From Deltaproteobacteria bacterium (GTDB lineage Bacteria > JAGRBM01 > JAHCIT01), in NCBI GenBank assembly GCA_026129095.1, contig JAHCIT010000006.1, positions 64,235-128,234 on the forward strand: DNA of 64,000 nucleotides, read 5' to 3'. Shown here in pieces: positions 27,025 to 56,387 of the stretch. The notes below the pieces were generated by a model, which was not told where the DNA came from, ran no database searches, and saw only the letters and a list, made by a program, of their open reading frames with translations. Made by a program: the position numbers and the translations under genes. Within the stretch, counting starts at the first letter, position 1, and each line of letters begins with the position of its first letter.

Positions 27025-27081
27025 CATGGTGCCCCCGGACGGAATCGAACCGTCACGGCCGTGAAGCCAGCGGTTTTTGAG
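27025..27081. repeat. 57-bp direct repeat of the 3' portion of tRNA-Leu(CAA); putative distal attachment site of the island
   Basis: The sequence atggtgcccccggacggaatcgaaccgtcacggccgtgaagccagcggtttttgag is identical to 55824-55880. Confidence 0.85.
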
Positions 27082-27163
27082 GGTGACGCCTGGCCTGGTA
27101 ACAAAGACGATAACGGGGAAGAAGAGGAATGATTGCGGCGGATAGTGCGGGATCGTTCTGCCA

Positions 27164-27670
27164 GTGGATGCCGATGAAAACCGGTACTTTCAGCTGGTCT
27201 GGGCACAAGTTGGGCACATCGAAACAGGCAGGGCCAGATCGCTGGTCTCCGCGCAAAAAGAACCGCTTTACCTCGCCAAGTATATTGAACGGATGGGCAC
27301 CGGCACCGGAGACATGATTCGGCGTTGCCGGGAGGCCGGATTCCCCGAACCGGAATTCACCATCCGGGACGGGTTCGTGACGATCATTCGGCGCAGGACC
27401 GGACAAGTCACCGGACAAGTTGATCCATGGGTGGAAAGGGTTCTCGAAGCCTGTGCAGTGAAGTCGCTTTCGAGCAAACAGATACAGGAAATCAGCGGCA
27501 TCAGGCACCGGGAGTCGTTCCAGCGGAACTACCTGGACCACCTGCTGAACGAAGGCTGGCTCGAACGTACCATTCCCGATAAACCCAACAGCTCGCGGCA
27601 GCAATACCGCCTGACAGGAAAAGGGTCCGCTCTGCTGGCAATGTTGCGGGAGAAAAACCGGAGAGAGTGA
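27164..27670 (+). pseudogene. C-terminal fragment of an HATPase_c_4/wHTH (Schlafen-AlbA-associated divergent ATPase) transcriptional-regulator-like gene
   Basis: LYLAKYIERMGTGTGDMIRRCREAGFPEPEFTIRDGFVTI is typical of the C-terminal ~150 aa of ~480-aa proteins of this family. The ORF starts immediately inside the island boundary and lacks the N-terminal domains. Confidence 0.45.
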
Positions 27671-27891
27671 TTGTTTCCTCCACGCGATGATGATGACGAT
27701 GGCGATGCTGATGAGCAAGCTCGTGGCGTGGGTTCGGCCTCGAACGAGCATGTGTGAGCATTCCTTTTCTAGCAGATCAAGAAAATACCCATAGCATCGT
27801 TCCGCCAGTATCCGGGGCTCTGGCTGCAAGTTGGCTGCATGATTCTGTGTGATGGCTGGCTCTGGCGTGTCCGGAGTTATATAGAATTCGG

Positions 27892-29025
27892 ATGACCGGC
27901 GGTTTTCTCCATCCGGCGGACCTCAAACGCCACCTGCTCAACCCCGACAAGTTCGTGCGGGAATGGGCCTCGATTTATTTCGGCAGTGCATTGATCCAAG
28001 ACACCGACCTGCCTGTTCTCATCATGGAGGCAGTCGAAAGATACGGCGAACTCAACAGTTTCTTCAGCTTGGCCAAACTGGATGTGTTCCCTCAGACGGA
28101 ACGGTCGGTTTCCATGATCCTCTCGCGGCTGGAAAAGGTCCGCCGGCAGGAAACCGCCGAATGCCTGAACCGGGCGCTCGCACTGATGCCGCTCGATCTC
28201 GTGCCGGTCTTCGAGAGCCGCATGAAAGCCGTCCCTGCCCTGCATCCAATGACTCATGAAAGGATCGCACGGCGGCGGGAATACAGATCCCGCAGGCCGC
28301 CGGAACTTTTCGACGAGCTTCTGTCGGTCTCGCTGAAATACGAAGGGAAACCCGTCCCGCCCCCCGAATTTGCCAGAACCGACGATCTGATTGAAGCGAT
28401 TGCCGCCCAGGACTGGCCGCCGTCCGGGAAACTGGTCGAGATGCTCCGGGAGCCGGATTACCAGGGGAGATGGGCCGAATACTTCATTGTGAAACTCTGC
28501 GGAACAGTCAGGAGCGAGCTGGCGGTGCCGCTCATCGTCGCGCAGCTGGCGTCAGATGATGATTTCCTTCCGGATGCCGCGCAGGAGAGCCTGTACCGGA
28601 TTGGGTATCCCGGAACTCCCGGCCTCATCCGGTCCCTCTGGCATAAACTTCCGGATGAACTCTCCCGTATGATGTCCGCATACACTTTCGCCGGTTTCAA
28701 ATCGCCCGCCTCGGCGGCAGCGGTCCTTGAACTGCTGGAACTGGAGGATGACCCCAGCCTGAGAACCATTCTGCTCGACTCGCTCGCCTATCTCGGTTCG
28801 GACAGGGCGGTGGCTATCGGTTGCGAGGAACTGGATGACCTTGACGAAGCCGTTACCGGAGACCTCATCCTGGCACTCTATGGAGCCGCAAAAATCCGCG
28901 GACTTGAAGTTCCCGAAGCGGCTGCATGGAAGAACGAACTGGAAGAGAACAACCGTCGCTTCAACAAGGAGGTGTTCGGCGTCGGCCCCGGTTCAGACCG
29001 GCCCCTGAGAAAACTGCCATTTTAG
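27892..29025 (+). CDS. Hypothetical alpha-helical (HEAT/ARM-like) repeat protein
   Basis: The 377-aa protein has a repetitive leucine-rich helical composition. No catalytic motif was recognised. Confidence 0.4.
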   Translation: MTGGFLHPADLKRHLLNPDKFVREWASIYFGSALIQDTDLPVLIMEAVERYGELNSFFSLAKLDVFPQTERSVSMILSRLEKVRRQETAECLNRALALMPLDLVPVFESRMKAVPALHPMTHERIARRREYRSRRPPELFDELLSVSLKYEGKPVPPPEFARTDDLIEAIAAQDWPPSGKLVEMLREPDYQGRWAEYFIVKLCGTVRSELAVPLIVAQLASDDDFLPDAAQESLYRIGYPGTPGLIRSLWHKLPDELSRMMSAYTFAGFKSPASAAAVLELLELEDDPSLRTILLDSLAYLGSDRAVAIGCEELDDLDEAVTGDLILALYGAAKIRGLEVPEAAAWKNELEENNRRFNKEVFGVGPGSDRPLRKLPF

Positions 29026-29111
29026 CGAAACCACAACGGCCGTTGTCTAATCAATATGGTATACAATTTAGATACGACATTTATAATTTGAGGTATAGCA
29101 ATACTTTTATC

Positions 29112-29139
29112 TTGACTCTTCCGTACCCATGCATATACT
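29112..29139 (+). promoter_or_regulatory. Sigma70-like promoter of the Type I RM operon (TTGACT-16-TATACT)
   Basis: It sits in an AT-rich 90-bp intergenic stretch at 29040-29130, with -35 at 29112-29117 and -10 at 29134-29139. Confidence 0.4.
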
Positions 29140-29191
29140 TGTGGCTATGGAAGCGTCACAACCCACCCATTTTCACCTCCAAAAAACGGCT

Positions 29192-29803
29192 AAAATGGCC
29201 GTTTGGCGGTCTTTGGGCGAGGTTGCCGAGATCATCGCCGGTCACCCGCTCTACCGGTTCGAGGGCGACACAGGACCTGCGATCCCGATTATCAATATCC
29301 GCGACCTGGAACACGCCGCCGATCTGACTCACTTCCTGGAAACGGCCGCCATCTCCGATCCGGCCAGATTCGGGCGTGCCCGGATTCTTCCCGACGATGT
29401 GATTGTGACGGCGAGAGGGACGCAGCTCCGGTCGGTTCTGGCCCCGGCCCGCTGGCAGGGCGCGGTCGCCTCATCGAACCTCATGCTCATCCGGCCGAAG
29501 CCGGAGATACTACTCCCGGAACTGCTGTCGGTATTTCTCCAGTCGCCCGCCGGGGTGAAAGCGTTCGAGCAGCGCCGGACCGGCACTCAGTTACTCAAGC
29601 TCACCCTTCGGGATCTGGCCGAAATCGAAGTGCCGGTGCCGCCGCTTTCCGAACAGCGCCAGCTCGCGGACCTGCTCCGCTCTGCCCAGGACTATTACGT
29701 CAACGCCCGCTACGCCGCCGAGATGCGTCTGATGGCGGCGCGCCAGATCGTGTCGGAACGGATTCTGCCCCCGCGCAAGCCCGCCACTGGAGACCCTGAA
29801 TGA
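29192..29803 (+). CDS. hsdS: Half-size Type I restriction-modification specificity subunit (single target-recognition domain HsdS); the ORF is listed from 29129 but the start at 29192 (MAVWRSLGEV) is likely
   Basis: The C-terminal conserved region VPVPPLSEQRQLADLL parallels the LPPLPEQKRIA and LPIPPIDEQRQI motifs of the full HsdS downstream. The stop overlaps the hsdM start. Confidence 0.6.
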   Translation, partial: KMAVWRSLGEVAEIIAGHPLYRFEGDTGPAIPIINIRDLEHAADLTHFLETAAISDPARFGRARILPDDVIVTARGTQLRSVLAPARWQGAVASSNLMLIRPKPEILLPELLSVFLQSPAGVKAFEQRRTGTQLLKLTLRDLAEIEVPVPPLSEQRQLADLLRSAQDYYVNARYAAEMRLMAARQIVSERILPPRKPATGDPE

Positions 29804-31302
29804 AAACCACCAGCACCAGCCAGCTCTTCGGCCACATCTGGAAAGCCGCCGACATCTTGCGCGGCTCCATCGACTCGTCCGACTACAAGGGGTTCATCTT
29901 CGCGATGATGTTCCTCAAGCGCGCCAACGACGTGTTCGAGGAAGAGGCCGAGAAAATTTTGAAGGAAACCGGCGACCGCAAGCTCGCCTACGAAGACGAG
30001 GACGAGCACCCGATCTTCGTGCCCAAGCGTGCGCGGTGGGAGGAACTCCGCAAGAAATCCACCCAGCTGGGCGACACCCTCAACAAGGCTTGCGAAGCGC
30101 TGGAACACTCCAATTCGACGCTTGAAGGCGTCCTTGCCGGCATCGACTTCAACGACGAGCACCGGCTGGGCGACGCCAAGCAGCGCGACATGCTGCTGGC
30201 GAAACTGATCCTTCATTTCTCGGAGATCAGCCTGCGGAACGCCGATCTGCCGGAGCCCGACGCGCTCGGCCGGGTCTATGAATACCTGATCGAGAAGTTC
30301 GCCGACGACGCCGGCAAGAAGGGCGGCGAGTTCTACACCCCGCGCGGCGTCGTCCAGCTTCTGGCGGAACTGCTCGAACCGAAAGAAGGGATGCGGATCT
30401 GCGACCCCACCTGCGGATCGGGCGGCATGCTGATCGAATGCGCGCACAAGATCGAGAATGACGGCGGCAACCCGCGCAACCTCTCCCTGTTCGGGCAGGA
30501 GAAGAACCTGGGCACCTGGGCCATCGCCAAGATGAACCTGCTCCTTCACGGGCTGCCGGACGCGCAGGTCGCCAAGGGGGACACGATCCGCGATCCCAAG
30601 TTCCTGGAAAAGGGCGAACTGATGCTGTTCGACCGGGTGATTGCCAATCCGCCGTTCAGCCTGGACGAATGGGGCCGCGATGCGGCCGAGGCCGACCGGT
30701 TCGGGCGCTTCAGGTTCGGCGTTCCGCCCGCCAGCAAGGGCGACCTAGCGTTCCTCCAGCACATGGTTGCGACGCTCAATGCCAAGGGCATGCTCGGCGT
30801 CGTCATGCCGCACGGCGTGCTGTTCCGGGGCGGTGCCGAAGGGAAGATCCGCGAAGGTCTCCTGAAGGAAGACCTGTTCGAGGCGGTGATCGGCCTGCCG
30901 GTGAACCTGTTCTACGGAACCGGGATTCCGGCGGCGATCCTGGTGCTGCGCCGGTCCGGAGCGAAACCGCCCGCCCGGCGCGGCAAGGTGCTGTTTATCA
31001 ACGCACCGGACGGATTCGAGAGCGCCCCGAACCAGAACAAGCTCCGGCCGCAGGATATCGAGCGGATCGCCAGGGCGTTCAAGGCCTTCAGGGACGAGGA
31101 GAACTTCGCCCGCGTCGTGCCGCTGAAAGAGATCGAGGACAACGGCTTCAACCTGAACATCTCCCGCTACGTGGAGATGGGCGGTGAAGATGCGATCCCC
31201 GACGTCCGCGAGGCGCTGAAAGCGCTCCGCGTCGCGGAAGCAAAGCGCGATGAGGCCGAGAAGCGCATGAACAGGATGCTCAGGGAACTCGGGTTCGAGT
31301 GA
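29800..31302 (+). CDS. hsdM: Type I restriction-modification N6-adenine DNA methyltransferase subunit
   Basis: The N-terminus SQLFGHIWKAADILRGSIDSSDYKGFIFAMMFLKR, the FYTPR motif, the SAM motif DPTCGSGGML and the NPPF motif (IANPPFS) are all present. Confidence 0.9.
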   Translation: MKTTSTSQLFGHIWKAADILRGSIDSSDYKGFIFAMMFLKRANDVFEEEAEKILKETGDRKLAYEDEDEHPIFVPKRARWEELRKKSTQLGDTLNKACEALEHSNSTLEGVLAGIDFNDEHRLGDAKQRDMLLAKLILHFSEISLRNADLPEPDALGRVYEYLIEKFADDAGKKGGEFYTPRGVVQLLAELLEPKEGMRICDPTCGSGGMLIECAHKIENDGGNPRNLSLFGQEKNLGTWAIAKMNLLLHGLPDAQVAKGDTIRDPKFLEKGELMLFDRVIANPPFSLDEWGRDAAEADRFGRFRFGVPPASKGDLAFLQHMVATLNAKGMLGVVMPHGVLFRGGAEGKIREGLLKEDLFEAVIGLPVNLFYGTGIPAAILVLRRSGAKPPARRGKVLFINAPDGFESAPNQNKLRPQDIERIARAFKAFRDEENFARVVPLKEIEDNGFNLNISRYVEMGGEDAIPDVREALKALRVAEAKRDEAEKRMNRMLRELGFE

Positions 31303-31853
31303 GCAGGGAGATGCAGGAATTCGCCATGTCGCGGCTTTGGGACCAACCGGGAGTGCCCCACAGGGGATGGAGGTGTATCGATGTCGTCGATAACCGGCCG
31401 GGTGACGTTGAGCCGGGCGAGGATGTCACCGAGGGCTATCCCACCTGCGAGATGTGCGGCCAGGAGCGGATACGGTTCGTGCATCTGATGGAGCATCCCG
31501 ATTTCCCGCAGCAACTGGACGTCGGCTGTGTCTGTGCGGAAAAGATGGAGGGCGACTACACCGGCCCGCGCCGGCGTGAGGCGACGCTCAAGAGCAAGGC
31601 CGCCCGCCGCGACAAATGGCTCACCCGGCGGTGGAACGAATCGGCGAAAGGGAACCCCTTCCTTCGCATTGAGGGCTTTGTCCTGACCGTATTCCGGGAT
31701 TCCCGCCGTCCCGGGCACTGGAAATGCAGCATTAAGGAACCCGGTGCCGAAGACCCGATCTTCGGCACCCAGTCCCATCCGTCCGAGGACGCCGCCAAGC
31801 TCGCCCTGTTCGAAAAGTTCTGGCACCTCCGGCAAAAAGGGACCGTCCAGTGA
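31299..31853 (+). CDS. Hypothetical Cys-rich (putative zinc-ribbon) protein embedded between hsdM and hsdS
   Basis: The 184-aa protein has the cysteine pattern WRCIDVV...YPTCEMCG...VGCVCAE. Its start and stop overlap the neighbouring genes by 4 nt each. Confidence 0.5.
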   Translation: MSREMQEFAMSRLWDQPGVPHRGWRCIDVVDNRPGDVEPGEDVTEGYPTCEMCGQERIRFVHLMEHPDFPQQLDVGCVCAEKMEGDYTGPRRREATLKSKAARRDKWLTRRWNESAKGNPFLRIEGFVLTVFRDSRRPGHWKCSIKEPGAEDPIFGTQSHPSEDAAKLALFEKFWHLRQKGTVQ

Positions 31854-33094
31854 CCAAGCCCCTTCCCAAAGGCTGGCGCCGCGTGCGGCTGGGCGAGTTT
31901 CTATCGCCGAGCAAGCTGCGCTTCGTTGTGCGCGACGACGTTACGTACACTCAAGTGACCGTAAGGATTCGCCATAAAGGCATCGTGGCAAGAGGTTACG
32001 AACAAGGTTCAAACATCAAGACGAAAAACCAGAATCAAATCAAAGCAGGGCAGTTTCTTATATCCAAGATCGACGCGCGTAACGGGGCCTGTGGTATTGT
32101 CCCACCAGAGCTTGATGATGCAGTAACGACTCACGACTTTCTTGCGTACGACGTCAATCCTGAAATTGTCGATCCGGGATTTTGGGACATCTATTCGTCG
32201 CTACCTTCGTTTGTCGAACTCTGTGCTTTGGCGAGTGAAGGGACAACGAATCGCGTTCGCCTGCGCCCCGATGAATTCCTGGACATGGAGATAGTGCTCC
32301 CTCCTCTCCCCGAGCAAAAACGGATCGCCGCCACCCTCCAGTCCGTCGACGCCGCCATCCGGGCCAACGAAGAGGTCATCGAAAAGACCCGCGACCTGAA
32401 AAAATCGCTCGCCAACGAGCTGCTGACCCGCGGTATCCCCGGCCGGCATAAGCGGTTCAAGGATTCCCCCATCGGCAAGATACCGGTGGACTGGGAGGTG
32501 AAGCGGCTGGGGGGCCTTCTTCTCCGGATCGAAGCAGGCAAAAGCCCCAAGTGTGAAGACCGTCCCGCCTCTCCAGAGGAATGGGGCGTGCTGAAAGTGA
32601 GCGCGGTAAGCTGGGGCACTTTTCATGCCCATGAGAATAAAGCGTTACTACCGTCGACATTGCCGTTCCCAGATTCTGAAGTTCAGGAGGGCGATCTTCT
32701 TCTTAGCAGAGCGAACACGCCGGATCTCGTTGGCCGTTGCGTAATCGTCGGGAAGGTGCGTCGACGCCTCCTGCTGTCTGACAAGACCCTTCGTCTTGTT
32801 CCCAATGATCGCCTCACCAGTAAACAGTTTCTAAATATCGCGTTGAATTCTCCCGATGCCAGAATACAGATTTCGTTAAATGCCACAGGCTCGTCACGCT
32901 CCATGAAGAATATTTCCCAAGAGACGCTACGGGATGTCGTCCTCCCTATACCGCCCATTGACGAACAGCGCCAGATCACTGAAGCGCTCGACACTACCGA
33001 TCCGCGAGATATCGAAGCGAAAACTGCCGTCCAGGAATATCGGAAAGTCGGTGCTTTACTACGGAGTTCTCTATTAGCGGGGATAAGTGTATGA
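31850..33094 (+). CDS. hsdS: Type I restriction-modification specificity subunit (two TRDs)
   Basis: The central and C-terminal conserved repeats are LPPLPEQKRIAATLQSVDAAI and LPIPPIDEQRQITEALDT. TRD1 (~31930-32300) is markedly AT-richer than the rest of the gene. Confidence 0.85.
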   Translation: MTKPLPKGWRRVRLGEFLSPSKLRFVVRDDVTYTQVTVRIRHKGIVARGYEQGSNIKTKNQNQIKAGQFLISKIDARNGACGIVPPELDDAVTTHDFLAYDVNPEIVDPGFWDIYSSLPSFVELCALASEGTTNRVRLRPDEFLDMEIVLPPLPEQKRIAATLQSVDAAIRANEEVIEKTRDLKKSLANELLTRGIPGRHKRFKDSPIGKIPVDWEVKRLGGLLLRIEAGKSPKCEDRPASPEEWGVLKVSAVSWGTFHAHENKALLPSTLPFPDSEVQEGDLLLSRANTPDLVGRCVIVGKVRRRLLLSDKTLRLVPNDRLTSKQFLNIALNSPDARIQISLNATGSSRSMKNISQETLRDVVLPIPPIDEQRQITEALDTTDPRDIEAKTAVQEYRKVGALLRSSLLAGISV

Positions 33095-33384
33095 ACTCAC
33101 TCATTACAGACGCCGTCCGCGAGCGCCGCGTCCTGACCTTCACCTATGATGGTTTTGAACGGCAGGTCGAGCCCTATACCTATGGAAAGCTGACGACCGG
33201 ATATGAAGGGTTGCGGGCGTTCCAGACCGGCGGCGGTTCGCGCTCCGGCAACCAGCCCATGTGGCGGCTGTTCCACGTCAACAGGATTCGCGGCCTCGCC
33301 CTGACCGAGGACCGGTTCACCAACCCAAGACCCGACTACAACCCCCAGGATTCCGACTTCCGGACCATCTGGGCGGGGGTGTGA
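33091..33384 (+). CDS. Small WYL-domain protein
   Basis: RVLTFTYDGFERQVEPYTYGKL...MWRLFHVNRIRGLALTEDRF matches the WYL-domain pattern (...Y....R.veP......WYL.a.....RtFRldRI). The ORF is 97 aa. Confidence 0.6.
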   Translation: MNSLITDAVRERRVLTFTYDGFERQVEPYTYGKLTTGYEGLRAFQTGGGSRSGNQPMWRLFHVNRIRGLALTEDRFTNPRPDYNPQDSDFRTIWAGV

Positions 33385-33387
33385 GCG

Positions 33388-34446
33388 ATGGCCAAGGGAA
33401 TAAATACTACGGGTGTACGGCTCCTTGATTACAAGGAAGTCCTGTCGTCACTCCCTGAAAAGAAGAAGCGCCACCTTCTCCTTGGGAACGGCTTCAGCCG
33501 CGCACTGCGCAACGACATTTTCTCTTACGATGCGTTGTTTGACCAGGCGGATTTCACGTCAATTGATCCCAGAATCAAGGATCTCTTCGGATCCCTTGGC
33601 ACCACCGATTTTGAAACTGTTATGCGCGTGCTTAGAGATGCATCGAACCTGATCAACGTATACTTGCCCAAAGATAAGTTGCTTGCGAATACCCTCATCG
33701 AACATTCCAATGCCTTAAAAGGCCTCTTGGCCAAAACTATTTCCGACAACCACCCCGCTCATCCAAACGAAATCAAGGAAGAGCAGTATCAGCATTGCCG
33801 CATTTTTCTGAATTCGTTCAAAGATGTTTATACGCTGAACTATGACCTTCTGCTTTATTGGACCCTCATGCACGAAGAGCTGGGAGATTCGCTTTCCAAT
33901 GATGACGGCTTCCGTACGCCAGATTCAGGTGAGCAGGAGTATGTCACCTGGGAAGTCGAGAATTCTAACAAGCAGACGGTTTTCTATCTCCATGGCGCGC
34001 TCCACTTGTTTGATGCTGGCGCTGAGCTCCAGAAATACACTTGGAAGAACACGCAGGTACGATTGATCAAGCAGATTCAAAACGCCCTCGAAGAAGACCG
34101 CTATCCACTAATCGTTGCTGAAGGAACCGCCGATGGAAAACGACGCCAGATCAAGCATAGCGGCTATTTAACGAGGGGTTTCCGCAGTCTTTCCAATATT
34201 GGCGAGACCATGATTATGTTTGGTGTTTCGTGTTCCAAACAGGATGAGCACATCCTCAAAGCGATAGAAAAGGGAAGTGGCAATGGCATCACCGATATAT
34301 ACGTAAGCATTTTCGGCGATCCCGATAGTGACGCCAATAAACGCATTATCCGCCGCGCCAAACAGATGGGAATCGCTCGGCCCAAATACCGAAAAGCATT
34401 GACCGTCTCCTTCTTTGACGCGTCAACCGCAAAGGTCTGGGGCTAA
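33388..34446 (+). CDS. SIR2-like (SIR2_2/DUF4917-type) protein
   Basis: LLLGNGFS, YTLNYDLLLYW and FYLHGALH correspond to the GAGxS, TTNYD and HLHG signatures of the SIR2-like family. The protein is 352 aa and the gene is noticeably lower in GC than its neighbours. Confidence 0.6.
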   Translation: MAKGINTTGVRLLDYKEVLSSLPEKKKRHLLLGNGFSRALRNDIFSYDALFDQADFTSIDPRIKDLFGSLGTTDFETVMRVLRDASNLINVYLPKDKLLANTLIEHSNALKGLLAKTISDNHPAHPNEIKEEQYQHCRIFLNSFKDVYTLNYDLLLYWTLMHEELGDSLSNDDGFRTPDSGEQEYVTWEVENSNKQTVFYLHGALHLFDAGAELQKYTWKNTQVRLIKQIQNALEEDRYPLIVAEGTADGKRRQIKHSGYLTRGFRSLSNIGETMIMFGVSCSKQDEHILKAIEKGSGNGITDIYVSIFGDPDSDANKRIIRRAKQMGIARPKYRKALTVSFFDASTAKVWG

Positions 34447-34448
34447 TC

Positions 34449-38258: not shown

Positions 38259-38261
38259 TCC

Positions 38262-39469: not shown

Positions 39470-39475
39470 GACAGA

Positions 39476-47715: not shown

Positions 47716-47775
47716 TTCAGAAGCTTATCCCTTAGCCGGAATAAGCATGGAAAGTATTATCCTTATTATCCGCCA

Positions 47776-49224: not shown

Positions 49225-49785
49225 CTATGCCCCGGAGCCGTTTAAGAGGTCAAAATAGGAGACCGGCACGGAGTCCTCGGGGTTCAGTTTTAAGATCCGT
49301 GCGACTTCCTCGAACTCCGCAACGGTGTCAGCGCGATCCTGTCCGGAAATGACGGTTTCAATCTCGACGAAGGTGCCGAGCCCCTCGACGTCATCGAGGT
49401 GAATGCGGGTATTACGGAATAGGAACAGATGGCGTGTTTTCCTGACCGAACCCTTCGTGCCCAAGGCCTGTTCCAGGATTGCCTTGAGGCCTTCCAGCGC
49501 CGTTGAGTGGTAGACGAAATATTCGCTTTCCCGGCCGCCCGGGACGTCCGACCGTCGATAACTAATCAGTTCACCGCGCCCGTCACCAAATTCACGTAGC
49601 TTCAGGCGGGCATGCTCTGCCTGAAAGAACGTGTCGCACTGATGCAGCAGGCCCATATCTCGGGCACCCAGCTTACGAGTCTTTCGTTCAATGGCCGCTA
49701 TGTCACCGTACCGGAACTTCGCTTCGATATTTTTCACTGTCGCCTCGTTCGCGCCATCTTCGAACAATGGCAATTGGCCTTGCAA
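49225..49785 (-). CDS. CYTH-domain protein (class IV adenylate cyclase/CyaB-thiamine triphosphatase family)
   Basis: The ExExK signature is in KNIEAKFRY, followed by FVEIE and acidic clusters typical of the triphosphate tunnel metalloenzyme fold. The ORF is 186 aa. Confidence 0.6.
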   Translation of the reverse strand: MQGQLPLFEDGANEATVKNIEAKFRYGDIAAIERKTRKLGARDMGLLHQCDTFFQAEHARLKLREFGDGRGELISYRRSDVPGGRESEYFVYHSTALEGLKAILEQALGTKGSVRKTRHLFLFRNTRIHLDDVEGLGTFVEIETVISGQDRADTVAEFEEVARILKLNPEDSVPVSYFDLLNGSGA

Positions 49786-49935
49786 TTTATTGTGGAACTG
49801 GTCCGAAAAACTGCTATAATTTCTTTACTTCTCGGGTGCTGTCCGCTGCCATTTGGCAGGGCCCTACCAAACGACTCGGCCTCCAAACCAATGGGCGCCG
49901 GGTCGTTCCATTAGAATTATCAACGATTTTGAAAC

Positions 49936-50505
49936 ATGAATGTCTATTTGGTCCGGCATGGTCAAACTCAACCAAACATCGATGGTCCGACGGGCGTCGT
50001 GCAGGGGCAGCTCGACACTGACCTTAACAATGCAGGCGAAAATCAGGCGACTCAGCTTGCGAAGGAGTTGGAGAAAATCTCTTGGGAAGCTGTGTACAGC
50101 TCTACGTTAAAACGAGCGATTCGGACGGCAGAGATTTTGGTTCGCGGCCGGCACCCGGTTCTCCAGGTCGCCGGTCTTAACGAACGGCACTGTGGCGACT
50201 GGCAGGGTCGAAAGCGTTCTGATCTTGCTTGCGAGCTGGGATACTCGGACCTGATTGCATTCTGGAAAGCGCTCGGGCCTCATTTCGCTCCACCTAGAGG
50301 GGAAACATTCGATCAGATGGTAAGCCGGTCCGTAGCGACCTTTGAGCAGATCATCTCGGGCCACCCAAGAGATTCGAATGTCCTGCTGGTATCGCACGGT
50401 GGGCCGATTCGGGCGATAACCGGTCACCTCAGCGGGCTGTCGATAGAAGAGGTCTGGCAAATGCGTGGGCCCGAAAATTGCGAGGTCATACGAGTCGCAG
50501 TGTGA
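49936..50505 (+). CDS. Histidine phosphatase (phosphoglycerate mutase family) protein
   Basis: The N-terminal motif is VYLVRHGQT (RHG), with a conserved His in VSHGGPIRA. The ORF is 189 aa and lower in GC. Confidence 0.7.
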   Translation: MNVYLVRHGQTQPNIDGPTGVVQGQLDTDLNNAGENQATQLAKELEKISWEAVYSSTLKRAIRTAEILVRGRHPVLQVAGLNERHCGDWQGRKRSDLACELGYSDLIAFWKALGPHFAPPRGETFDQMVSRSVATFEQIISGHPRDSNVLLVSHGGPIRAITGHLSGLSIEEVWQMRGPENCEVIRVAV

Positions 50506-50920: not shown

Positions 50921-50924
50921 ATGT
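50800..50924. repeat. ~125-bp direct repeat, copy 2
   Basis: See 49042-49166. Confidence 0.8.
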
Positions 50925-51765: not shown

Positions 51766-52902
51766 TTAAGGCAGTTCCGGCTCGATAATAAAAGAAAGCG
51801 CTTCGTTCTTGACGTAGGCGGCATCGGCGCAAGCAAACAGTCCGGTCCAGGGCCGTCTGGTGACGAGTTTCCCATTGGTGCGGATCTCAAACCAATCGGC
51901 AAACGGCTGCCTGCGTCCGCCGATGTTTACGGCCAGAGGTTTCTTGACGGATGCGTTCATGGCAATTCCGAGGGCGGTCCCTTTAGGAACTCTTTTCAGG
52001 TTCGCCAGTCGGTCAATATCCGCCCGGAAAATAACGTCCGCGTTCGGATCTGGAGCGAAGGCAAAACGGACCCCGTTACGGACACGGATACTGCCAGTAA
52101 CCCGGTAAAGTGTGGGGTTCTTAGGCTCAGCGCGTTCTTTCGATGGCCTCGCGGACGCATGAGGAAAAGACCCGGAAAGCGATTTCCGGATCAGGCGAGA
52201 GCCGAACTGGATCCCTGCGGGATCATCGAAAAGACCAAGTTCGACCGTAAGGGACGGAACGCCGAGAGCGGGGCCCAGATCTCCACCCAGCGTCCCCCTT
52301 AAGTCTGTCTGGATCACCGGACATCCGATGAACCGGGCGAGAGCAAGTGTATCCGGGTCATGGCTGCGAATGATGGACACGACCGGATGCTGTCCCTCGC
52401 AGGCGTGCAGGTCGATCACGAATTGGGGTTTTACTGAACGAAGATAGCCTCGTACTCGAACCACTGCCGGCGACTGGCTGTTCCAGATCCGGTTTGGGTC
52501 AGGGACACCCCGGGTACCTCGCCTCAGGTTCCAGGCGTTGAAGACCATGAGCAACAGCGGTCGCCTTTGATTGCCACCGGTCATCTTGGCCATGGCGTTT
52601 CGGATTGCTTCCCAGCCATTCCGTTCGTTTCCATGAAGTCCCACGGATACAAACAGAGGCCGTTCATTGGTTGCGGTAAGATTTGGCGGCTGTACCCAGA
52701 CCAGTAACGGCTGCTTTTTGCCACGACAGAACTTCCAGAGTTGCCTTGATGGGGTGGACCAGAACCGGGGTGGTGGTTCGGAGTAAATGACGAGCCCCGG
52801 AAAATGGCTCCACGGACCTTCCCGTGCCGGCACTGGAGTGGTGTTCCGCTTCACAGCATCAAACTTAGTTCCGGGTTCAAATGGCCACAAATGGCCTTCC
52901 AA
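51766..52902 (-). CDS. Succinylglutamate desuccinylase/aspartoacylase (M14-like zinc hydrolase) family protein
   Basis: SVGLHGNERNGWEAI is the zinc-binding HxxE region, and a downstream HACEG-like His is present. The ORF is 378 aa. Confidence 0.5.
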   Translation of the reverse strand: MEGHLWPFEPGTKFDAVKRNTTPVPAREGPWSHFPGLVIYSEPPPRFWSTPSRQLWKFCRGKKQPLLVWVQPPNLTATNERPLFVSVGLHGNERNGWEAIRNAMAKMTGGNQRRPLLLMVFNAWNLRRGTRGVPDPNRIWNSQSPAVVRVRGYLRSVKPQFVIDLHACEGQHPVVSIIRSHDPDTLALARFIGCPVIQTDLRGTLGGDLGPALGVPSLTVELGLFDDPAGIQFGSRLIRKSLSGSFPHASARPSKERAEPKNPTLYRVTGSIRVRNGVRFAFAPDPNADVIFRADIDRLANLKRVPKGTALGIAMNASVKKPLAVNIGGRRQPFADWFEIRTNGKLVTRRPWTGLFACADAAYVKNEALSFIIEPELP

Positions 52903-53326
52903 CTGAAAAGGCCGACCACCTGGATGGCTGTATTCTGGCCACTTCGCAGGTCTGTCTCACGGGTCGCCCCCGGCGTCCCCGTTCGTCGCACGCGGTTAAC
53001 CAGTGGCGGCGTCTCCGGTCCCATGAGTCCTTCATGTGCCGTGTAGCGGTGCTGTAGGCGCTGGTTCACGGACTGGCGTGGCGCACTAGGTGCATGGCCA
53101 CCACGGAGGCGGTTTGAGGGAAGGCAGTGAGGTTCTCAAGTCGGTAACCGGTTGAACGTCGCCGGTCTGAGCCTGTCAACCTTCTGATTCATCAAGATCT
53201 GACGTATAAACCGGCTGGGTCGGCTCGCTGCATCGATGTTCCACTTCCGGTCCGGACCAGTGGAACCTTAAAAGAACGCAAATGCACGAATTTAGCCTGA
53301 GCCCGCCACGACACAGCCAGCGAAAC

Positions 53327-53438
53327 GGGGTAGGGCCACCTGTAATTCAGGGTAGGACCACCTGCTGAGCGAGGTAGGAGAGCCTGTACTTTGAGGTAGG
53401 ACTGCCTGCGGAACAGGGTAGGGGTGCCTGAGCAAAAG
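53327..53438. repeat. Five tandem ~22-bp iteron-like repeats with core GGTAGGnnnnCCTG
   Basis: The units are ggggtagggccacctgtaattca, gggtaggaccacctgctgagcga, ggtaggagagcctgtactttga, ggtaggactgcctgcggaacag and ggtaggggtgcctgagcaaaag. They are bracketed by atgcacgaat at 53282 and 53447 and lie in an ~850-bp non-coding stretch. Confidence 0.7.
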
Positions 53439-53759
53439 GACGAACATGCACGAATCAGGTGTGCGTCAATGACTGGCCTCAATGAAGGAACCGTCAATAT
53501 ACCGTCGTTTTGAGGCCCGTACCCGCGCGGGTTTAACTTCTGGTCGCGTCATGGCTGAAGTTCCGGCGATTGTCGGATGTCACAGATAGACACCGATGCT
53601 CCCGGGATTATCCGCGACTATTGGTAGTTACATTTGGAGTCTGCCCGGATAATCGTCTGAAGCCCGGCGCAATCGCCTGCCTCGCCCGGTGCCGTATCTT
53701 TTTAGATAAAATAAATTGAACTAAAAAGAATGGCGTGATAAACGGTTAGTGGAGGTCAG

Positions 53760-54242
53760 ATGACTAAACCGTTCCCCAAGCCGCCGGACACCATCGATAG
53801 CGAAGCCGCTGCCGAGCGTACTGGCATCTCGTACCCGCGTCTCATGCGGTTCCTGCGGAATGGATACGTCAAGCCTCAGGGCTATACGGGGAAGCCCCGT
53901 TCACCCGCCTGGTGGACCGACGATGACATGCACAGGGCCGAGATCGCCGACATGCTGCTGGAACTGCGGGTGGACCCGGCGGATATCCCCGGCGTCATTA
54001 GCAAGTACTGGGGGTTCTGGTCGGCGGGGTATCTCCCGATGTGGGCGTACGAGATGCGTCACCCGAAAACGGGCAAGCCGTACATGGGCTACATCGCCGT
54101 CTATCACGAAGACGGAGCCCGGCTCACCGGTAAAGAAAAAACGATCGAAGCCAACGGCACGAAGGGCTACCAGATGCAAGTCTATGCATTGCCATATGAA
54201 TGGTCCCGCAAGCTGGTACCCTTAAAGAAGAGACGGGGCTGA
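53760..54242 (+). CDS. Hypothetical protein upstream of xis/int
   Basis: A 160-aa ORF with no recognised motif. Confidence 0.45.
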   Translation: MTKPFPKPPDTIDSEAAAERTGISYPRLMRFLRNGYVKPQGYTGKPRSPAWWTDDDMHRAEIADMLLELRVDPADIPGVISKYWGFWSAGYLPMWAYEMRHPKTGKPYMGYIAVYHEDGARLTGKEKTIEANGTKGYQMQVYALPYEWSRKLVPLKKRRG

Positions 54243-54243
54243 A

Positions 54244-54615
54244 ATGAATCCGGGCACACTGACGCTGGCCGATCTCCTGCAATCCCCGGAACGGATTGCG
54301 GACCTGCCGGTTGAATCGGTGCCGTCCTTTCTGGCTCAGCTGACCACGCTGCAATCCGGTCTGTATGCGAGGCTGCTGCTGCACCCGGCAAGACCACCGG
54401 TAGAGGCCGAGACGAATGAAGACGACCGGTGGCTGACTGCCGAAGAGGCGGCTCCGCTCCTCGGCGTGACGCCCCGGTGGCTCTATACTCGCTGGAGGCA
54501 GCTCCCGTTTTCCAGAAAGCTTTCCCACAAGGTGCTGCGCTTTTCGGAGAAGGGCATTCGCCGGTATCTGGCGGGAAAGGCCGGGAGACCGGTCGCTGTT
54601 GAGGTGAACCGGTGA
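54244..54615 (+). CDS. xis: Excisionase/AlpA-like HTH DNA-binding protein
   Basis: EEAAPLLGVTPRWLYTRWRQLPFSRKL...VLRFSEKGIRRYL is a helix-turn-helix of the excisionase type. It sits immediately upstream of, and overlaps, the integrase. Confidence 0.55.
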   Translation: MNPGTLTLADLLQSPERIADLPVESVPSFLAQLTTLQSGLYARLLLHPARPPVEAETNEDDRWLTAEEAAPLLGVTPRWLYTRWRQLPFSRKLSHKVLRFSEKGIRRYLAGKAGRPVAVEVNR

Positions 54616-56387
54616 GCGAACGCGGGATGGGGTCGGTGTACCGCCGGGGTAAAATCTGGTGGATTAAGTATCACTTCCGGGGGAAACCGTTCCGGGAGTC
54701 GTCGAAGTCGCCTGTTCGTAATGACGCCGTGAAGCTGCTTCGCAAACGTCAGGCGGACATGGGCAGGGGCCGGTTTGCTGGGCCGGACCCGGAACGAACC
54801 GTTCTCGGCGATCTCGCCCGGATGATGATCGATGATTACGAGGTGAACGGGCGAAAGTCGTTGAAGCGCGCCAAACTGAGCCAGGCCCATTTACTCGATT
54901 TCTTCGGCAACGCCCGAATCATCGATATCACCCCGGACACGGTCAAGGCCTATATCGCGCACCGGCTGCGGGAGAAGGCGGCGCATCAGACCGTCAAGAC
55001 CGAACTCGTTACTCTTAAGCGGATGTTCCGTCTGGGCGAACAGGTCGGCCGCGTTGATAAAATCCCATATATCCCGACCATCAAGGTCGAAAATATCCGG
55101 CAGGGTTTCTTCAGCGACGCCGAATTTCGCGCGATCTGTTCAAACCTGTCCGACGACATTCAGCCGCTTGCGAAGTTCGCGTACCTGACCGGGTGGCGGC
55201 GCGGAGAAGTTCTGACGCTCACCTGGCGGCAGGTGGATTTCGACGCCGGGATTATCCGTCTCGAACCCGGCACGACCAAGAACAAGGAAGGCCGGATATT
55301 TCCGTTCTCGGTGTTGCCCGAGCTTTGCGACCTCATGGTTGAGCAACGGCAGCGTACCGACGCGATTGAGCATGAACTCGGCAGGATCATTCCTTGGGTG
55401 TTCCACCGTAGAGGGAAACCGGTCAAATATTTCTGCTCCGCATGGTATAACGCGGGCAAAAAGGCGGGGGTGCCGGGGAAGCTTTTCCATGATTTCCGCC
55501 GGACAGCCGTGCGCAGGATGGAGAGGGCCGGCGTTCCTCGAAGCGTCGCCATGAAGCTGATCGGTCACAAGACCGAAAGTATTTACAGGCGATACGCGAT
55601 TGTGGACGAGGGCGACCTGGCAGCCGGAGTGGAAAAACTGGCGGTGCTCAGGGAAAAAGAAGCCAAACAGCCCCGCACGGTAGTGCCGATGGCCCCGGCG
55701 CGTCTGGCGGGGTCGGATCTGGGTTTGGGCACAATTTGGGCACAAAAGCCGGAAAAGATGAGGGAAAACCCGGCCCGCCGTGTCTGGAGTGACCGCGCAC
55801 TCCGGCGATATTGTTCAGGGATTTATGGTGCCCCCGGACGGAATCGAACCGTCACGGCCGTGAAGCCAGCGGTTTTTGAGACCGCCCTGTCTACCAGTTC
55901 CAGCACGGGGGCATGGCGGGAAAAGACGCCGGTATGGAGCACGGCGCCGCACCCGGAGTCAACGATAGCCGGCAACAATGGCGGGAGCCGCCATGTGTCA
56001 GGCCCGCTCTCGGGCGATATCGGCCGGGGTGGACGGCAAGGGCTCGGCTTTCGTGTACCACCAGGCCCACAGGATGAAGATCGCCTGGAATGGCAGGCGT
56101 GCCCAGCGCTGGAGAGGCTCGGGCTGGTTCATCCATTCCGGCAGGCCCTCAAGCTGGACATTGCTCGTCGCCATGTAGATATTGGCCGGGAACACGGCGA
56201 CCAGCAGTGCGATGATTCCCCAGGCCGAGAGCTGCGAGTAGCGGGGGAACAGCACTCCGGCGCCGAGAACGATCTCCGCCACCCCGCTCAGATAGACCAG
56301 TTCCAGGTGCCAGGGCAGCCAGGGCGGCATGATCTGGACGTAGAACTGCGGCACGACGAAGTGCATCACTCCCGCGAAGATGTATAG
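54612..56387 (+). CDS. int: Tyrosine-type site-specific recombinase (phage integrase family); the catalytic domain lies within ~54612-55700 and the in-frame read-through to 56387 is doubtful
   Basis: The N-terminal SAM-like domain has IWWIKYHFRGKPFRES. The catalytic residues are R (LTGWRRGE), the HDFRRTAVRRMERAGV box and Tyr in ESIYRRYA. There is no in-frame stop before 56387, so the ORF overlaps tRNA-Leu and DoxX on the opposite strand. Confidence 0.75.
   Translation: MSERGMGSVYRRGKIWWIKYHFRGKPFRESSKSPVRNDAVKLLRKRQADMGRGRFAGPDPERTVLGDLARMMIDDYEVNGRKSLKRAKLSQAHLLDFFGNARIIDITPDTVKAYIAHRLREKAAHQTVKTELVTLKRMFRLGEQVGRVDKIPYIPTIKVENIRQGFFSDAEFRAICSNLSDDIQPLAKFAYLTGWRRGEVLTLTWRQVDFDAGIIRLEPGTTKNKEGRIFPFSVLPELCDLMVEQRQRTDAIEHELGRIIPWVFHRRGKPVKYFCSAWYNAGKKAGVPGKLFHDFRRTAVRRMERAGVPRSVAMKLIGHKTESIYRRYAIVDEGDLAAGVEKLAVLREKEAKQPRTVVPMAPARLAGSDLGLGTIWAQKPEKMRENPARRVWSDRALRRYCSGIYGAPGRNRTVTAVKPAVFETALSTSSSTGAWREKTPVWSTAPHPESTIAGNNGGSRHVSGPLSGDIGRGGRQGLGFRVPPGPQDEDRLEWQACPALERLGLVHPFRQALKLDIARRHVDIGREHGDQQCDDSPGRELRVAGEQHSGAENDLRHPAQIDQFQVPGQPGRHDLDVELRHDEVHHSREDV
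55826..55912 (-). tRNA. tRNA-Leu (anticodon CAA), type II with long variable arm
   Basis: The reverse-complement sequence is GCCCCCGTGCTGGAACTGGTAGACAGGGCGGTCTCAAAAACCGCTGGCTTCACGGCCGTGACGGTTCGATTCCGTCCGGGGGCACCA. It has a 7-bp acceptor stem, the anticodon loop CTCAAAA, the T-loop GGTTCGATTCC and a CCA end. Confidence 0.85.

What the first reader, a model, noticed from the sequence alone, without database searches (positions are those of the whole stretch)
27025..55912. 28.9-kb island integrated at tRNA-Leu(CAA) with 57-bp att direct repeats
An exact 57-bp copy of the tRNA 3' half at 27025-27081 matches the intact tRNA at 55826-55912. The xis and int genes are just inside the tRNA-proximal end. 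The interior carries the RM super-operon, the CHAT operon, CYTH/phosphatase genes and iterons.

The element is therefore potentially excisable and mobile. It delimits which genes are accessory cargo.
Basis: seen in the sequence. Interest (0 to 1): 0.55.

Follow-up and report, generated by a model that had tools for sequence, protein, structure and literature searches.

The report
Integrase-driven genomic island in tRNA-Leu
A 28.8-kb block of foreign DNA carrying phage-defence genes was inserted by its own integrase into a leucine tRNA gene; near-identical strains lack it precisely, so it is a real and recently mobile island of a well-known, ordinary kind.

Summary
The exact direct repeat is 56 bp, not 57: 27026-27081 = 55825-55880. 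It covers the tRNA-Leu(CAA) gene (55826-55912, minus strand) from the first base of the anticodon loop through CCA, plus 1 nt.

Three independent metagenome contigs of the same species (100%, 99.3-100% and 97% identical flanks) join window ..27081 directly to 55881.. with one att copy and an intact tRNA. The island is therefore a precise insertion of 28,799 bp.

Just inside the tRNA-proximal end lies a tight operon of a 160-aa gene, xis (HTH_17) and int (tyrosine recombinase, catalytic R-K-H-R-H-Y intact). Paired 7-mers (GGGCACA-N4-GGGCACA) sit 81-98 bp inside one end and 120-137 bp inside the other. Two fully contained relatives show the same geometry with their own co-varying motifs, so these are probably arm-type Int sites of a lambda-like attP.

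The cargo is mosaic:
- a type I RM operon with an embedded DUF4917/PDC-S21 gene and a Fic-HsdR fusion;
- a low-GC ECF-sigma/CHAT operon;
- CYTH and histidine-phosphatase genes;
- a 5 x 22-bp iteron array.

I found no phage, replication or conjugation genes. The int ORF has no stop before att and reads through the tRNA. Verdict: a new member of a known kind, of modest interest.

The parts
27026..27081 (-). attR: displaced 3' fragment of tRNA-Leu(CAA). It comprises 55 nt of tDNA plus 1 nt and is an exact copy of 55825-55880.
   Evidence: the empty-site alignment is.
27201..27218 (+). Putative P'-arm Int-binding pair, GGGCACAAGTTGGGCACA, lying 120-137 bp inside the island from attR.
   Evidence: exact pattern found only twice in 64 kb. 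Relatives L031 and L032 show the same geometry with their own motifs.
27164..27670 (+). N-terminally truncated gene remnant. It keeps only the C-terminal part of HATPase_c_4 plus the Fic-like_C winged helix. The frame is closed by a stop at 27143.
   Evidence: sequence. NCBI lists it as a hypothetical protein, MCW5829630.1.
27892..29025 (+). HEAT-repeat-like protein of 377 aa, function unknown.
   Evidence: HEAT_2, just below the cut-off. No PADLOC, PHROG or NCBIfam hit.
29129..38990 (+). Type I RM 'super-operon'. In order: half-HsdS (29129-29803), HsdM (29800-31302), 184-aa unknown (31299-31853), HsdS (31850-33094), 97-aa WYL-like (33091-33384), DUF4917/PDC-S21 SIR2-like (33388-34446), Fic-HsdR fusion of 1269 aa (34449-38258), and YgjP-like metallopeptidase (38262-38990).
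   Evidence: The module is shared at 87-91% nucleotide identity with L027 in a different genomic context and with a different embedded cassette.
39017..41203 (-). Two genes: a 150-aa unknown (39017-39469) and a 575-aa repeat-containing protein (39476-41203) with internal repeats of roughly 80-170 nt.
   Evidence: The only PHROG hit is to a repeat region of a 'virion structural protein' family.
41660..46731 (-). Low-GC (42-50%) four-gene operon: 170-aa unknown, 216-aa ECF-sigma-like, 358-aa unknown, and a 985-aa CHAT-domain protein.
47068..49015 (+). Three genes of unknown function (215, 203 and 248 aa). The 203-aa protein has a weak SprT-like zinc-protease motif.
49225..50505 (.). Divergent pair: a CYTH-domain gene (49225-49785, minus) and a histidine-phosphatase gene (49936-50505, plus). 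The pair is bracketed by a 165-nt direct repeat (49031-49195 / 50789-50953, 79% identical).
   Evidence: (D8).
51766..52902 (-). AstE/AspA-like (succinylglutamate desuccinylase/aspartoacylase fold) gene of 378 aa.
   Evidence: It is conserved at 85% nucleotide identity in the variant island L010.
53270..53455 (+). Iteron-like array of five to six 22-bp units (R-GGTAGG-N4-CCTG) at 53313-53439. It is bracketed by a 22-nt direct repeat, AAAAGRACGMAMATGCACGAAT, at 53270-53291 and 53434-53455. The array lies in an 857-bp non-coding stretch upstream of the int operon.
   Evidence: It is 92% conserved in L010.
53760..54242 (+). First gene of the recombination operon, 160 aa, function unknown. The N-terminus looks like a helix-turn-helix by eye, but this is not supported by any profile.
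   Evidence: A homologue at 90% identity or more (same 90%-identity cluster, representative P0135) lies in L010.
54244..54615 (+). xis-like recombination directionality factor, 123 aa, with an HTH_17 domain. Its stop overlaps the int start (GTGA).
   Evidence: HTH_17, 29.7 bits against a cut-off of 27; phrog_66 excisionase. It is 35-39% identical to the gene upstream of int in L005 and L008.
54612..56387 (+). Tyrosine integrase ORF. The conserved part spans roughly codons 1-385. There is no stop before att, so the ORF reads through attL and the tRNA (55825-55912) to 56387, giving 591 codons. In a circular form it would end at TGA 27130-27132, giving 439 aa.
55727..55744 (+). Putative P-arm Int-binding pair, GGGCACAATTTGGGCACA, lying 81-98 bp before attL. 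It sits inside the int 3' end, where it encodes G-T-I-W-A-Q.
55825..55880 (-). attL identity block within the intact tRNA.
55826..55912 (-). Intact tRNA-Leu(CAA), the integration target.

Best explanation
This is a tDNA-targeting integrative genomic island of 28,799 bp, counting one att copy (window 27082-55880).

How it got there. A circular form carrying an attP of about 300 bp recombined with attB in the tRNA-Leu(CAA) gene. The reaction was catalysed by the island's own tyrosine integrase. The attP includes a 56-bp copy of the tRNA from the anticodon loop to the 3' end. Because of that copy, integration regenerates an intact tRNA at attL and leaves a displaced 3' fragment at attR.

Where the strands cross. 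The identity block starts exactly at the first base of the anticodon loop, so the crossover is most likely in that loop. This corresponds to Islander/Williams class 'A'. The anticodon stem would supply the inverted core-type sites in attB.

How the complex is assembled. Paired 7-mers at 11-bp spacing lie on both sides of the core, at -81..-98 and +120..+137. They most likely bind the Int N-terminal domain as arm-type sites, as in lambda. The upstream HTH_17 protein would act as the excisionase.

What the island carries. The cargo is a mosaic of defence and signalling modules. The island has no recognisable replication, packaging or transfer genes. It can probably excise and reintegrate, but it would depend on other means for transfer between cells.

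Shown versus inferred. Shown: the precise insertion, the polymorphism between near-identical strains, the intact tRNA, the catalytic residues, and the conserved geometry of the repeat pairs. Inferred: the crossover position, arm binding, the Xis function, and present-day excision activity.
For: - Exact 56-bp direct repeat, one copy inside an intact tRNA-Leu(CAA).
- Three empty sites whose junction is identical to ..27081|55881... L002 has 1 mismatch in 14.7 kb, L003 is 99.3-100% identical, and L026 is 97% identical.
- A more distant relative, L011, keeps RadC-PlsC-DoxX-tRNA with no integrase.
- The int, xis and 160-aa genes form a tight operon at the tRNA-proximal end, and the Int catalytic R-K-H-R-H-Y is intact.
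- Relatives at 45-57% identity also abut the 3' end of a tRNA in the same orientation: Leu-CAA, Leu-TAA, SeC and Lys.
- GGGCACA-N4-GGGCACA occurs exactly twice in 64 kb, once inside each island end.
- Two fully contained relatives have their own motif in the same geometry: GGGGCCAG in L031 and GGGACAA in L032. Each has one pair 58-87 bp before att and one pair 120-138 bp after the far att copy.
- A 94%-identical variant of the int end (L010) also runs into the same att.
- Composition is foreign: GC 56.3% against 62.9%, tetranucleotide p = 1.5e-4.
Against: - No circular attP junction was found in the JGI metagenome contigs, and the att is absent from IMG/VR.
- The int ORF has no stop codon before att. 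The integrated form encodes 591 codons against a family norm of about 350-400.
- The source record appears to give int no protein accession. xis is MCW5829656.1 and the next gene, DoxX, is MCW5829657.1, so int may have been annotated as a pseudogene.
- The Arm-DNA-bind_2 hit of the Int N-terminus is below the cut-off (16.7 against 22 bits).
- No replication, transfer or packaging gene was found.
- The gene abutting attR is truncated, which suggests some decay.
Confidence: 0.88

Rival explanations
1. It is a fixed relic. The island did integrate by site-specific recombination, but it can no longer move, because int is effectively a pseudogene and the element has decayed.
For: - The int ORF lacks its own stop and is extended to 591 codons across the tRNA.
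- int apparently has no protein accession in the NCBI record.
- The gene next to attR is truncated.
- The primase-helicase/AAA_25 module found upstream of xis-int in relatives is absent here.
- No attP junction was found.
Against: - Both att copies are identical over 56 bp.
- All catalytic residues and the whole conserved part of Int are intact, with no frameshift.
- A strain with 1 mismatch in 14.7 kb lacks the island, so the last recombination event was very recent.
- About 14% of close homologues also have long tails, and 12 show tRNA-like translated sequence. Read-through into the tDNA is therefore a recurrent feature of the family, not a lesion specific to this copy.
Confidence: 0.2
2. 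It is an assembly artefact. A free circular element carrying the 56-bp tRNA-like attP was threaded into the chromosome at the shared repeat by the assembler.
For: - Short-read contigs L004 (flank) and L010 (variant island end) both stop inside the att repeat. No second assembly independently links island to flank.
- Every other contig of the species that spans the tRNA site shows it empty.
Against: - The window is part of a 259,610-bp contig and crosses both junctions.
- A 56-bp repeat is short for a mis-join in such an assembly.
- Even if the artefact were true, the element would still be a tRNA-Leu-targeting integrative element with the same attP.
Confidence: 0.05
3. It is a prophage, a phage satellite, or an integrative conjugative or mobilisable element, and so has a defined route of transfer.
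For: - Relatives of the integrase occur in IMG/VR contigs predicted as viral and in small elements with primase-helicase modules.
- An iteron array is present.
- One PHROG 'virion structural protein' hit.
Against: - No capsid, terminase, tail, relaxase, coupling-protein, T4SS or Rep family was detected in any island ORF against Pfam, with subsets also scanned against PHROGs and NCBIfam.
- The PHROG hit is confined to a repeat domain of a 575-aa repeat-containing protein.
- The closest integrases of cultured phages are only about 26% identical.
Confidence: 0.07

Closest known systems
Islander/TIGER-type tDNA genomic islands (Williams 2002; Hudson, Lau & Williams 2015, PMC4383910)
   Same: The signature matches. 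There is an intact tDNA and a displaced 3' tDNA fragment in direct orientation, with a tyrosine integrase gene at the tDNA-proximal end. The identity block runs from the anticodon loop to the 3' end (class 'A', anticodon-centred). The size falls within 2-200 kb. About 71% of Islander islands are likewise not recognisable prophages.
   Different: The integrase belongs to an uncultured clade. The best database relatives are 57-60% identical and cultured-phage integrases only about 26%. The cargo combination is specific to this element.
Phage lambda attP architecture (core plus P and P' arm-type sites bound by the Int N-terminal domain; Xis as directionality factor). Cited from my own knowledge of the lambda system.
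   Same: Direct-repeat pairs lie on both sides of the core within about 140 bp, all in one orientation. An int-adjacent arm overlaps the 3' end of int. A small HTH protein is encoded immediately upstream of int.
   Different: Binding is untested. The arm motif and its spacing (two 7-mers 11 bp apart on each arm) differ from lambda. The target is a tRNA gene rather than an intergenic site. The N-terminal arm-binding domain is supported only by a hit below the cut-off.
Myxophage Mx8 IntP/IntX, where attP lies inside the int coding sequence (Tojo et al. 1996; Magrini et al. 1999; cited in PMC4383910 and PMC6070905)
   Same: The int ORF extends across att, so integration swaps the C-terminal tail. 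Here the tail after att is 16 residues in the circular form (439 aa in all) and 168 residues in the integrated form (591 aa in all). Both elements target the 3' part of a tRNA gene, and both have a 'deltaproteobacterial' host.
   Different: In Mx8 the swap changes a substantial functional C-terminal region and alters Int activity. Here the swapped part lies beyond the conserved end of the family. Most relatives stop before the tRNA, with a median tail of 46 aa after the catalytic Tyr motif, so the overlap may be incidental in a GC-rich genome.
The prr-type type I RM locus, with a defence gene embedded between hsdS and hsdR (EcoprrI/PrrC). Cited from my own knowledge.
   Same: The cargo RM operon carries a non-RM defence candidate (DUF4917/PDC-S21, SIR2-like) in the slot between hsdS and hsdR. 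A 90%-identical RM chassis elsewhere (L027) carries two TIR/ThsB-like genes in the same slot.
   Different: The embedded genes are not PrrC homologues. HsdR has an N-terminal Fic domain. No functional data exist.

Membership tests
tDNA-integrated genomic island (Islander definition) | An intact tRNA/tmRNA gene plus a displaced fragment of the same gene in direct orientation, which together delimit the element | tested here: met
   tRNA-Leu(CAA) lies at 55826-55912. The exact 56-bp copy lies at 27026-27081.
tDNA-integrated genomic island (Islander definition) | A tyrosine-recombinase integrase gene within or overlapping the element | tested here: met
   Phage_integrase E = 3.2e-18 and phrog_1 E = 1.6e-54. 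Catalytic R196, K223, H293, R296, H319 and Y328 are present.
tDNA-integrated genomic island (Islander definition) | A precise empty site (single att, intact tDNA) in related genomes, as in a comparative TIGER-type test | tested here: met
   L002, L003 and L026 join ..27081 to 55881.. exactly.
tDNA-integrated genomic island (Islander definition) | Excision to a circular form with an attP junction | tested here: inconclusive
   An exact attP junction pattern was not found in the JGI metagenome contigs. Raw reads of the source sample could not be searched.
Lambda-type heterobivalent integrase / attP with arm sites | Repeated arm-type sites on both sides of the core, within attP | tested here: met
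   GGGCACA-N4-GGGCACA occurs at 55727-55744 and 27201-27218 only. Co-varying equivalents lie at the same distances in L031 and L032 and on the int side in L005, L008, L012, L013, L015 and L016.
Lambda-type heterobivalent integrase / attP with arm sites | An N-terminal arm-DNA-binding domain in Int that binds those sites | tested here: inconclusive
   Arm-DNA-bind_2 gives E = 0.0074 and 16.7 bits, below the cut-off of 22. Binding cannot be tested in silico.
Prophage | Capsid, terminase, portal, tail or lysis genes | tested here: not met
   None was found in Pfam or PHROGs for the island ORFs scanned. The single PHROG 'structural' hit falls in a repeat domain.
Integrative conjugative / mobilisable element | Relaxase, coupling protein, T4SS or oriT | tested here: not met
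   No such Pfam or NCBIfam family was found in any ORF scanned. An oriT cannot be recognised with these tools.
Mx8/SSV-type int spanning attP | The int ORF continues across the att core, so integration changes the encoded C-terminus | tested here: met
   There is no stop between 54612 and 56387. The circular form would stop at 27130-27132.
Mx8/SSV-type int spanning attP | The altered C-terminus changes integrase activity | not testable with these tools
   The swapped part lies beyond the conserved end of the family. Its functional effect is unknown.

The most novel reading that the evidence does not exclude
The island may be a Rep-less derivative of a widespread, uncultured family of tRNA-targeting integrative elements. 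Fuller members of that family carry a primase-helicase/AAA_25 replicon upstream of xis-int. This island keeps only the int-xis chassis, the arm sites and an iteron array. It might therefore behave as a satellite, replicated or transferred by a helper relative while ferrying defence cargo. Integration also remodels the Int C-terminus (439 to 591 aa), which could bias the direction of recombination in the manner of Mx8.
Probability: 0.1. Interest if true: 0.55.

Novelty: new member of a known kind. Interest (0 to 1): 0.3.

Why it matters
The result fixes, to the base, which 27 protein-annotated genes (NCBI accessions MCW5829630-656) plus int are accessory cargo in this uncultured 'deltaproteobacterial' genome: the type I RM chassis with its swappable embedded defence slot, the Fic-HsdR fusion, the CHAT/ECF operon and the CYTH/phosphatase pair. 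It shows that this cargo arrived or left very recently, since a strain with 1 SNP in 14.7 kb of flank lacks it. It also yields a testable attP layout (core plus paired arm sites at conserved distances) for a large integrase clade known only from metagenomes. That layout could help delimit other islands and supply new site-specific recombination tools. In kind, however, this is a textbook tRNA-integrated island.

Tried and rejected
- The genome-contig scan with the DUF748 flank protein found one 64%-identical hit on a 2.3-kb contig, which was useless for synteny.
- Exact look-ups of the xis, HsdM and 160-aa proteins found no encoding contigs. The source MAG's DNA is not indexed there, although the proteins are in the protein collection.
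- The attP junction search in JGI metagenomes gave nothing, and the att 54-mer is absent from IMG/VR.
- The one JGI contig with the att (L011) looked as if it had an int-like ORF reading into the tRNA. BLASTP shows this ORF to be spurious: only the 18 residues encoded by the tRNA itself match.
- Rfam at gathering threshold returned no family at all, not even the tRNA.
- tblastn with the replication-module proteins of relatives found no remnant in the window.
- PADLOC found nothing for the CHAT operon, CYTH or His_Phos genes.
- Relaxed Pfam and NCBIfam scans of the unknown ORFs gave only noise.
- The promoter and terminator scan was no better than shuffled sequence.
- I considered a tandem or composite island with an internal att. 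No third att copy exists, so I rejected it.
- I considered segmental duplication and rejected it on the alignment.

Full report
**1. Observation**

ARAGORN finds one tRNA in the window, tRNA-Leu(CAA), at 55826-55912 on the minus strand. The repeat finder gives one exact two-copy family that involves it: 27026-27081 = 55825-55880, 56 bp (read directly).

On the tRNA strand, the block runs from sequence index 33 to the encoded CCA and one base beyond. Index 33 is the first base of the anticodon loop CTCAAAA, which is flanked by the stem GCGGT/ACCGC.

Searching each half of the repeat with up to 3 mismatches finds only these two copies, against 0.00 expected. There is no third, degenerate att, and so no tandem array of islands.

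**2. Is it an insertion? Yes, and precisely so**

An exact-protein look-up of the DoxX/MauE-like gene to the right of the tRNA retrieved contigs from other samples. In L002 (SRR30765738, 40 kb) and L003 (SRR23375771, 25 kb), that gene, the tRNA and the 1014-aa DUF748 gene lie 308 bp apart. In the window, the DUF748 gene lies to the left of the repeat.

Alignment A1 shows both contigs reading window ..27081 and then 55881.. without a single difference, and with one att copy. BLAST gives the following flank identities:
- L002: 100.000% over 8,176 bp of right flank and 99.985% over 6,562 bp of left flank.
- L003: 99.3% and 100%.

A third, more diverged strain (L026, SRR19361205, 97% identity) has the same empty arrangement. 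A more distant relative (L011, 67-77% nucleotide identity) keeps RadC-PlsC-DoxX-tRNA with no integrase.

The island is therefore 27082-55880, or 28,799 bp with one att copy. Absence in a strain that differs by 1 base in 14.7 kb means the last gain or loss was very recent. Its absence from all three other strains, including the 97% one, favours gain in the window's lineage.

The source is an NCBI MAG labelled 'Deltaproteobacteria bacterium' (locus tags KIT79_, contig of 259,610 bp). DUF748 is MCW5829629.1 and DoxX is MCW5829657.1, so 27 proteins are annotated in between.

**3. Composition**

Island GC is 56.3% against 62.9% for the flanks. Tetranucleotide distance to the flank profile is 0.30 +/- 0.11 in the island against 0.17 +/- 0.05 in the flanks (p = 1.5e-4). 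The outlier is 40-48 kb, where GC falls to 42-50% and the correlation falls as low as 0.07. So the island is foreign, and it is itself a mosaic.

**4. Recombination module**

At the tRNA-proximal end there is a tight plus-strand operon:
- a 160-aa gene at 53760-54242;
- a 123-aa HTH_17 protein at 54244-54615 (29.7 bits against a cut-off of 27; phrog_66 'excisionase and transcriptional regulator');
- int from 54612. The xis stop overlaps the int start (GTGA). Phage_integrase gives 3.2e-18 and phrog_1 gives 1.6e-54.

The catalytic R196, K223, H293, R296, H319 and Y328 fall on invariant columns of an alignment with 16 homologues. The best database relatives are only 57-60% identical, and all come from metagenomes. 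The closest integrases of cultured phages are about 26% identical.

Relatives show the same layout, with int reading towards the 3' end of a minus-strand tRNA that lies at, or within about 100 bp of, the end of the gene. The targets are tRNA-Leu(CAA) in L005-L007 and L012, Leu(TAA) in L008 and L013, SeC in L015, and Lys in L016. An HTH_17 gene lies upstream of int in L005-L008 and is 35-39% identical to the window's xis in L005 and L008.

**5. attP architecture**

The 10-mer TTGGGCACAA occurs as an exact tandem pair at 55725-55745. It recurs as a near-exact pair at 27199-27219. The pattern GGGCACA-N4-GGGCACA is found exactly twice in 64 kb, at 55727-55744 and 27201-27218, both on the plus strand. 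These positions are 81-98 bp before attL and 120-137 bp after attR.

The int-side pair is conserved at the DNA level in elements whose integrases are only about 50% identical, while the surrounding DNA is not conserved.

The decisive test came from two relatives that lie wholly within IMG/VR contigs and are delimited by their own att repeats:
- L031: att of 64 bp, target tRNA-SeC, element of 9.7 kb.
- L032: att of 46 bp, target tRNA-Lys, element of 9.4 kb.

Each has its own motif, GGGGCCAG in L031 and GGGACAA in L032. In each, one pair lies 58-87 bp before att and another pair lies 120-138 bp after the far att copy.

The motif differs between elements but co-varies among the four copies within each element, at conserved distances. 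That is what arm-type (P and P') Int-binding sites would look like. It also implies that the 'conserved' protein motif [GS]-T-x-x-A-Q near the Int C-terminus partly reflects a constraint on the DNA.

The Int N-terminus gives only a hit below the cut-off to Arm-DNA-bind_2, so binding remains an inference.

The identity block begins exactly at the anticodon loop. This places the element in the anticodon-centred class of tDNA islands (PMC4383910). The crossover position itself is inferred.

**6. The int ORF crosses att**

There is no stop codon between 54612 and 56387. In the integrated state the ORF runs through the tRNA and on, antisense to the DoxX gene, for 591 codons. Joining 55880 to 27082, as in a circle, would end it 16 codons after att (..AVFE-GDAWPGNKDDNGEEEE*, TGA at 27130-27132), giving 439 aa.

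Among 115 close homologues, the tail after the catalytic Y-R-R-Y-A-I motif has a median of 46 aa. Sixteen have tails of 80 aa or more, and 12 show sequences typical of translated tRNA genes, such as ..RTRT..RILSPARLPVPPLRH and ..RPQRDSNP... Read-through into the tDNA is thus a recurrent minority trait of the clade.

The formal precedent is Mx8 IntP/IntX. Here, however, the swapped residues lie beyond the conserved end of the family.

The source record seems to assign int no protein accession: xis is ...656 and the next gene is ...657. The reason is not stated in the data I could read, and the unusual 3' end is one possible cause. This is the main argument for the 'relic' rival.

**7. Cargo**

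Reading from the attR end:
- A truncated gene (27164-27670) retaining only the tail of HATPase_c_4 plus a Fic-like_C winged helix.
- A HEAT-like protein.
- A type I RM operon: half-HsdS, HsdM, a 184-aa unknown, HsdS, a 97-aa WYL-like protein, DUF4917 (PADLOC PDC-S21, E = 7e-121), a Fic-HsdR fusion of 1269 aa (REase_I E = 2e-166; Fic matching SoFic/PDC-S04), and a YgjP-like peptidase.
- Two minus-strand genes, one of which is a 575-aa repeat-containing protein.
- A low-GC operon of a 170-aa unknown, an ECF-sigma-like protein, a 358-aa unknown, and a 985-aa CHAT protein.
- Three unknown genes.
- A CYTH and histidine-phosphatase pair, bracketed by a 165-nt direct repeat.
- An AstE/AspA-like gene.

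The RM chassis (29089-38912) recurs at 87-91% nucleotide identity in another sample (L027), in a different neighbourhood. There, two TIR/ThsB-like genes and a 204-aa gene replace DUF4917 in the slot between hsdS and hsdR. This is a swappable defence slot within an RM operon.

**8. Iterons**

There are five to six 22-bp units (R-GGTAGG-N4-CCTG) at 53313-53439. They are bracketed by a 22-nt direct repeat and lie in the 857-bp non-coding stretch upstream of the int operon.

The array is 92% conserved in the variant island L010, against 85% for the wider aligned segment. L010 carries a second, unrelated 22-bp array just upstream of its 160-aa gene.

Relatives carry AAA_25 or Toprim/DnaB_C genes upstream of xis-int. 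No remnant of such genes exists in the window. Whether the iterons are an orphan origin or a regulatory operator is open.

**9. What it is not**

No capsid, terminase, tail, lysis, Rep, relaxase or T4SS family was detected. Every island ORF was scanned against Pfam, and subsets against PHROGs and NCBIfam. It is therefore not a recognisable prophage or ICE. Like most Islander islands (about 71% are not recognisable as prophages), its route between cells is unknown.

**10. Other copies, and a caveat**

A 94%-identical variant of the int end is L010, from SRR19361207 (85% identical in the AstE region). It runs into the same att and stops there. A contig of the right flank from the same sample (L004) stops inside att too. 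This is what a repeat with several contexts does to a short-read assembly graph.

It also means that no second assembly independently links island to flank. I therefore keep a small probability that a free circle was threaded into the chromosome by the assembler. Even then, the biological reading would stand: a tRNA-Leu-targeting integrative element.

**11. Verdict**

Novelty: a new member of a known kind. The added value is threefold: base-exact boundaries with three empty sites, a comparative case for paired arm-type sites at fixed distances in an uncultured integrase clade, and the finding that int reads across att. Interest is modest (0.3).

Noticed in passing
window 1-7235 (minus strand): A giant ORF starts near 7235 with a signal-peptide-like N-terminus and runs off the window start. 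It is more than 2,400 codons long and built of roughly 318-bp (106-aa) tandem domain repeats (families D1-D7). It is probably a large surface adhesin.
   Followed up: partly
window 33091-34446 versus L027 6053-7853: The slot between hsdS and hsdR of a roughly 90%-identical type I RM chassis holds different genes in two contexts. In the window it holds a WYL-like gene and DUF4917/PDC-S21. In L027 it holds two TIR/ThsB-like genes and a 204-aa gene. This is a swappable defence cassette inside an RM operon. The HsdS C-terminal target-recognition domain also diverges.
   Followed up: partly
window 54612-56387: The integrase apparently has no protein accession in the NCBI record, because xis is MCW5829656.1 and the next gene, DoxX, is MCW5829657.1. 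It may have been called a pseudogene or left unannotated, possibly because the ORF has no stop before the tRNA.
   Followed up: partly
window 55712-55745 and homologue C-termini (alignment A2): The conserved protein motif [GS]-T-(I/V)-x-A-Q near the C-terminus of this integrase clade is encoded by the tandem arm-type DNA repeat. Its conservation is therefore probably partly a constraint on the DNA rather than on the protein.
   Followed up: yes
window 49031-49195 and 50789-50953: A 165-nt direct repeat (79% identical) encodes the same peptide tail (..PLLDALAKIPDRxGPAGLEQALDEAGxWYWLPQF) in two small ORFs that bracket the CYTH and histidine-phosphatase pair. This suggests a duplication or cassette insertion. 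In L010 the segment 50921-51567, which includes the 94-aa ORF, is absent.
   Followed up: no
L010 2138-2255: The variant island carries a second, unrelated array of 22-bp repeats (about 5.5 copies, CCGACCGGCCACCGATCGGGCG) directly upstream of its 160-aa gene. It lies in a 570-bp segment that replaces window 53553-53781.
   Followed up: no
L004 (ends at window 55851) and L010 (ends about 30 nt into the att): Two short-read contigs from the same sample (SRR19361207) both terminate inside the 56-bp att. This is consistent with a branching assembly graph at a repeat that has several contexts.
   Followed up: partly
window 39476-41203 versus 1083-5848: The island-borne 575-aa protein shares short repeat families with the chromosomal giant repeat protein (D9 and D11). 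Both may contain related domain repeats.
   Followed up: no
whole window: Rfam at gathering threshold reported no family at all, not even tRNA for the tRNA-Leu that ARAGORN calls confidently.
   Followed up: no
window 55784-55805: A GC-rich hairpin (CTGGAGTG-ACCGCG-CACTCCGG) lies between the conserved end of int and att. The scan flags it as terminator-like, but such hits are not enriched over shuffled sequence.
   Followed up: no
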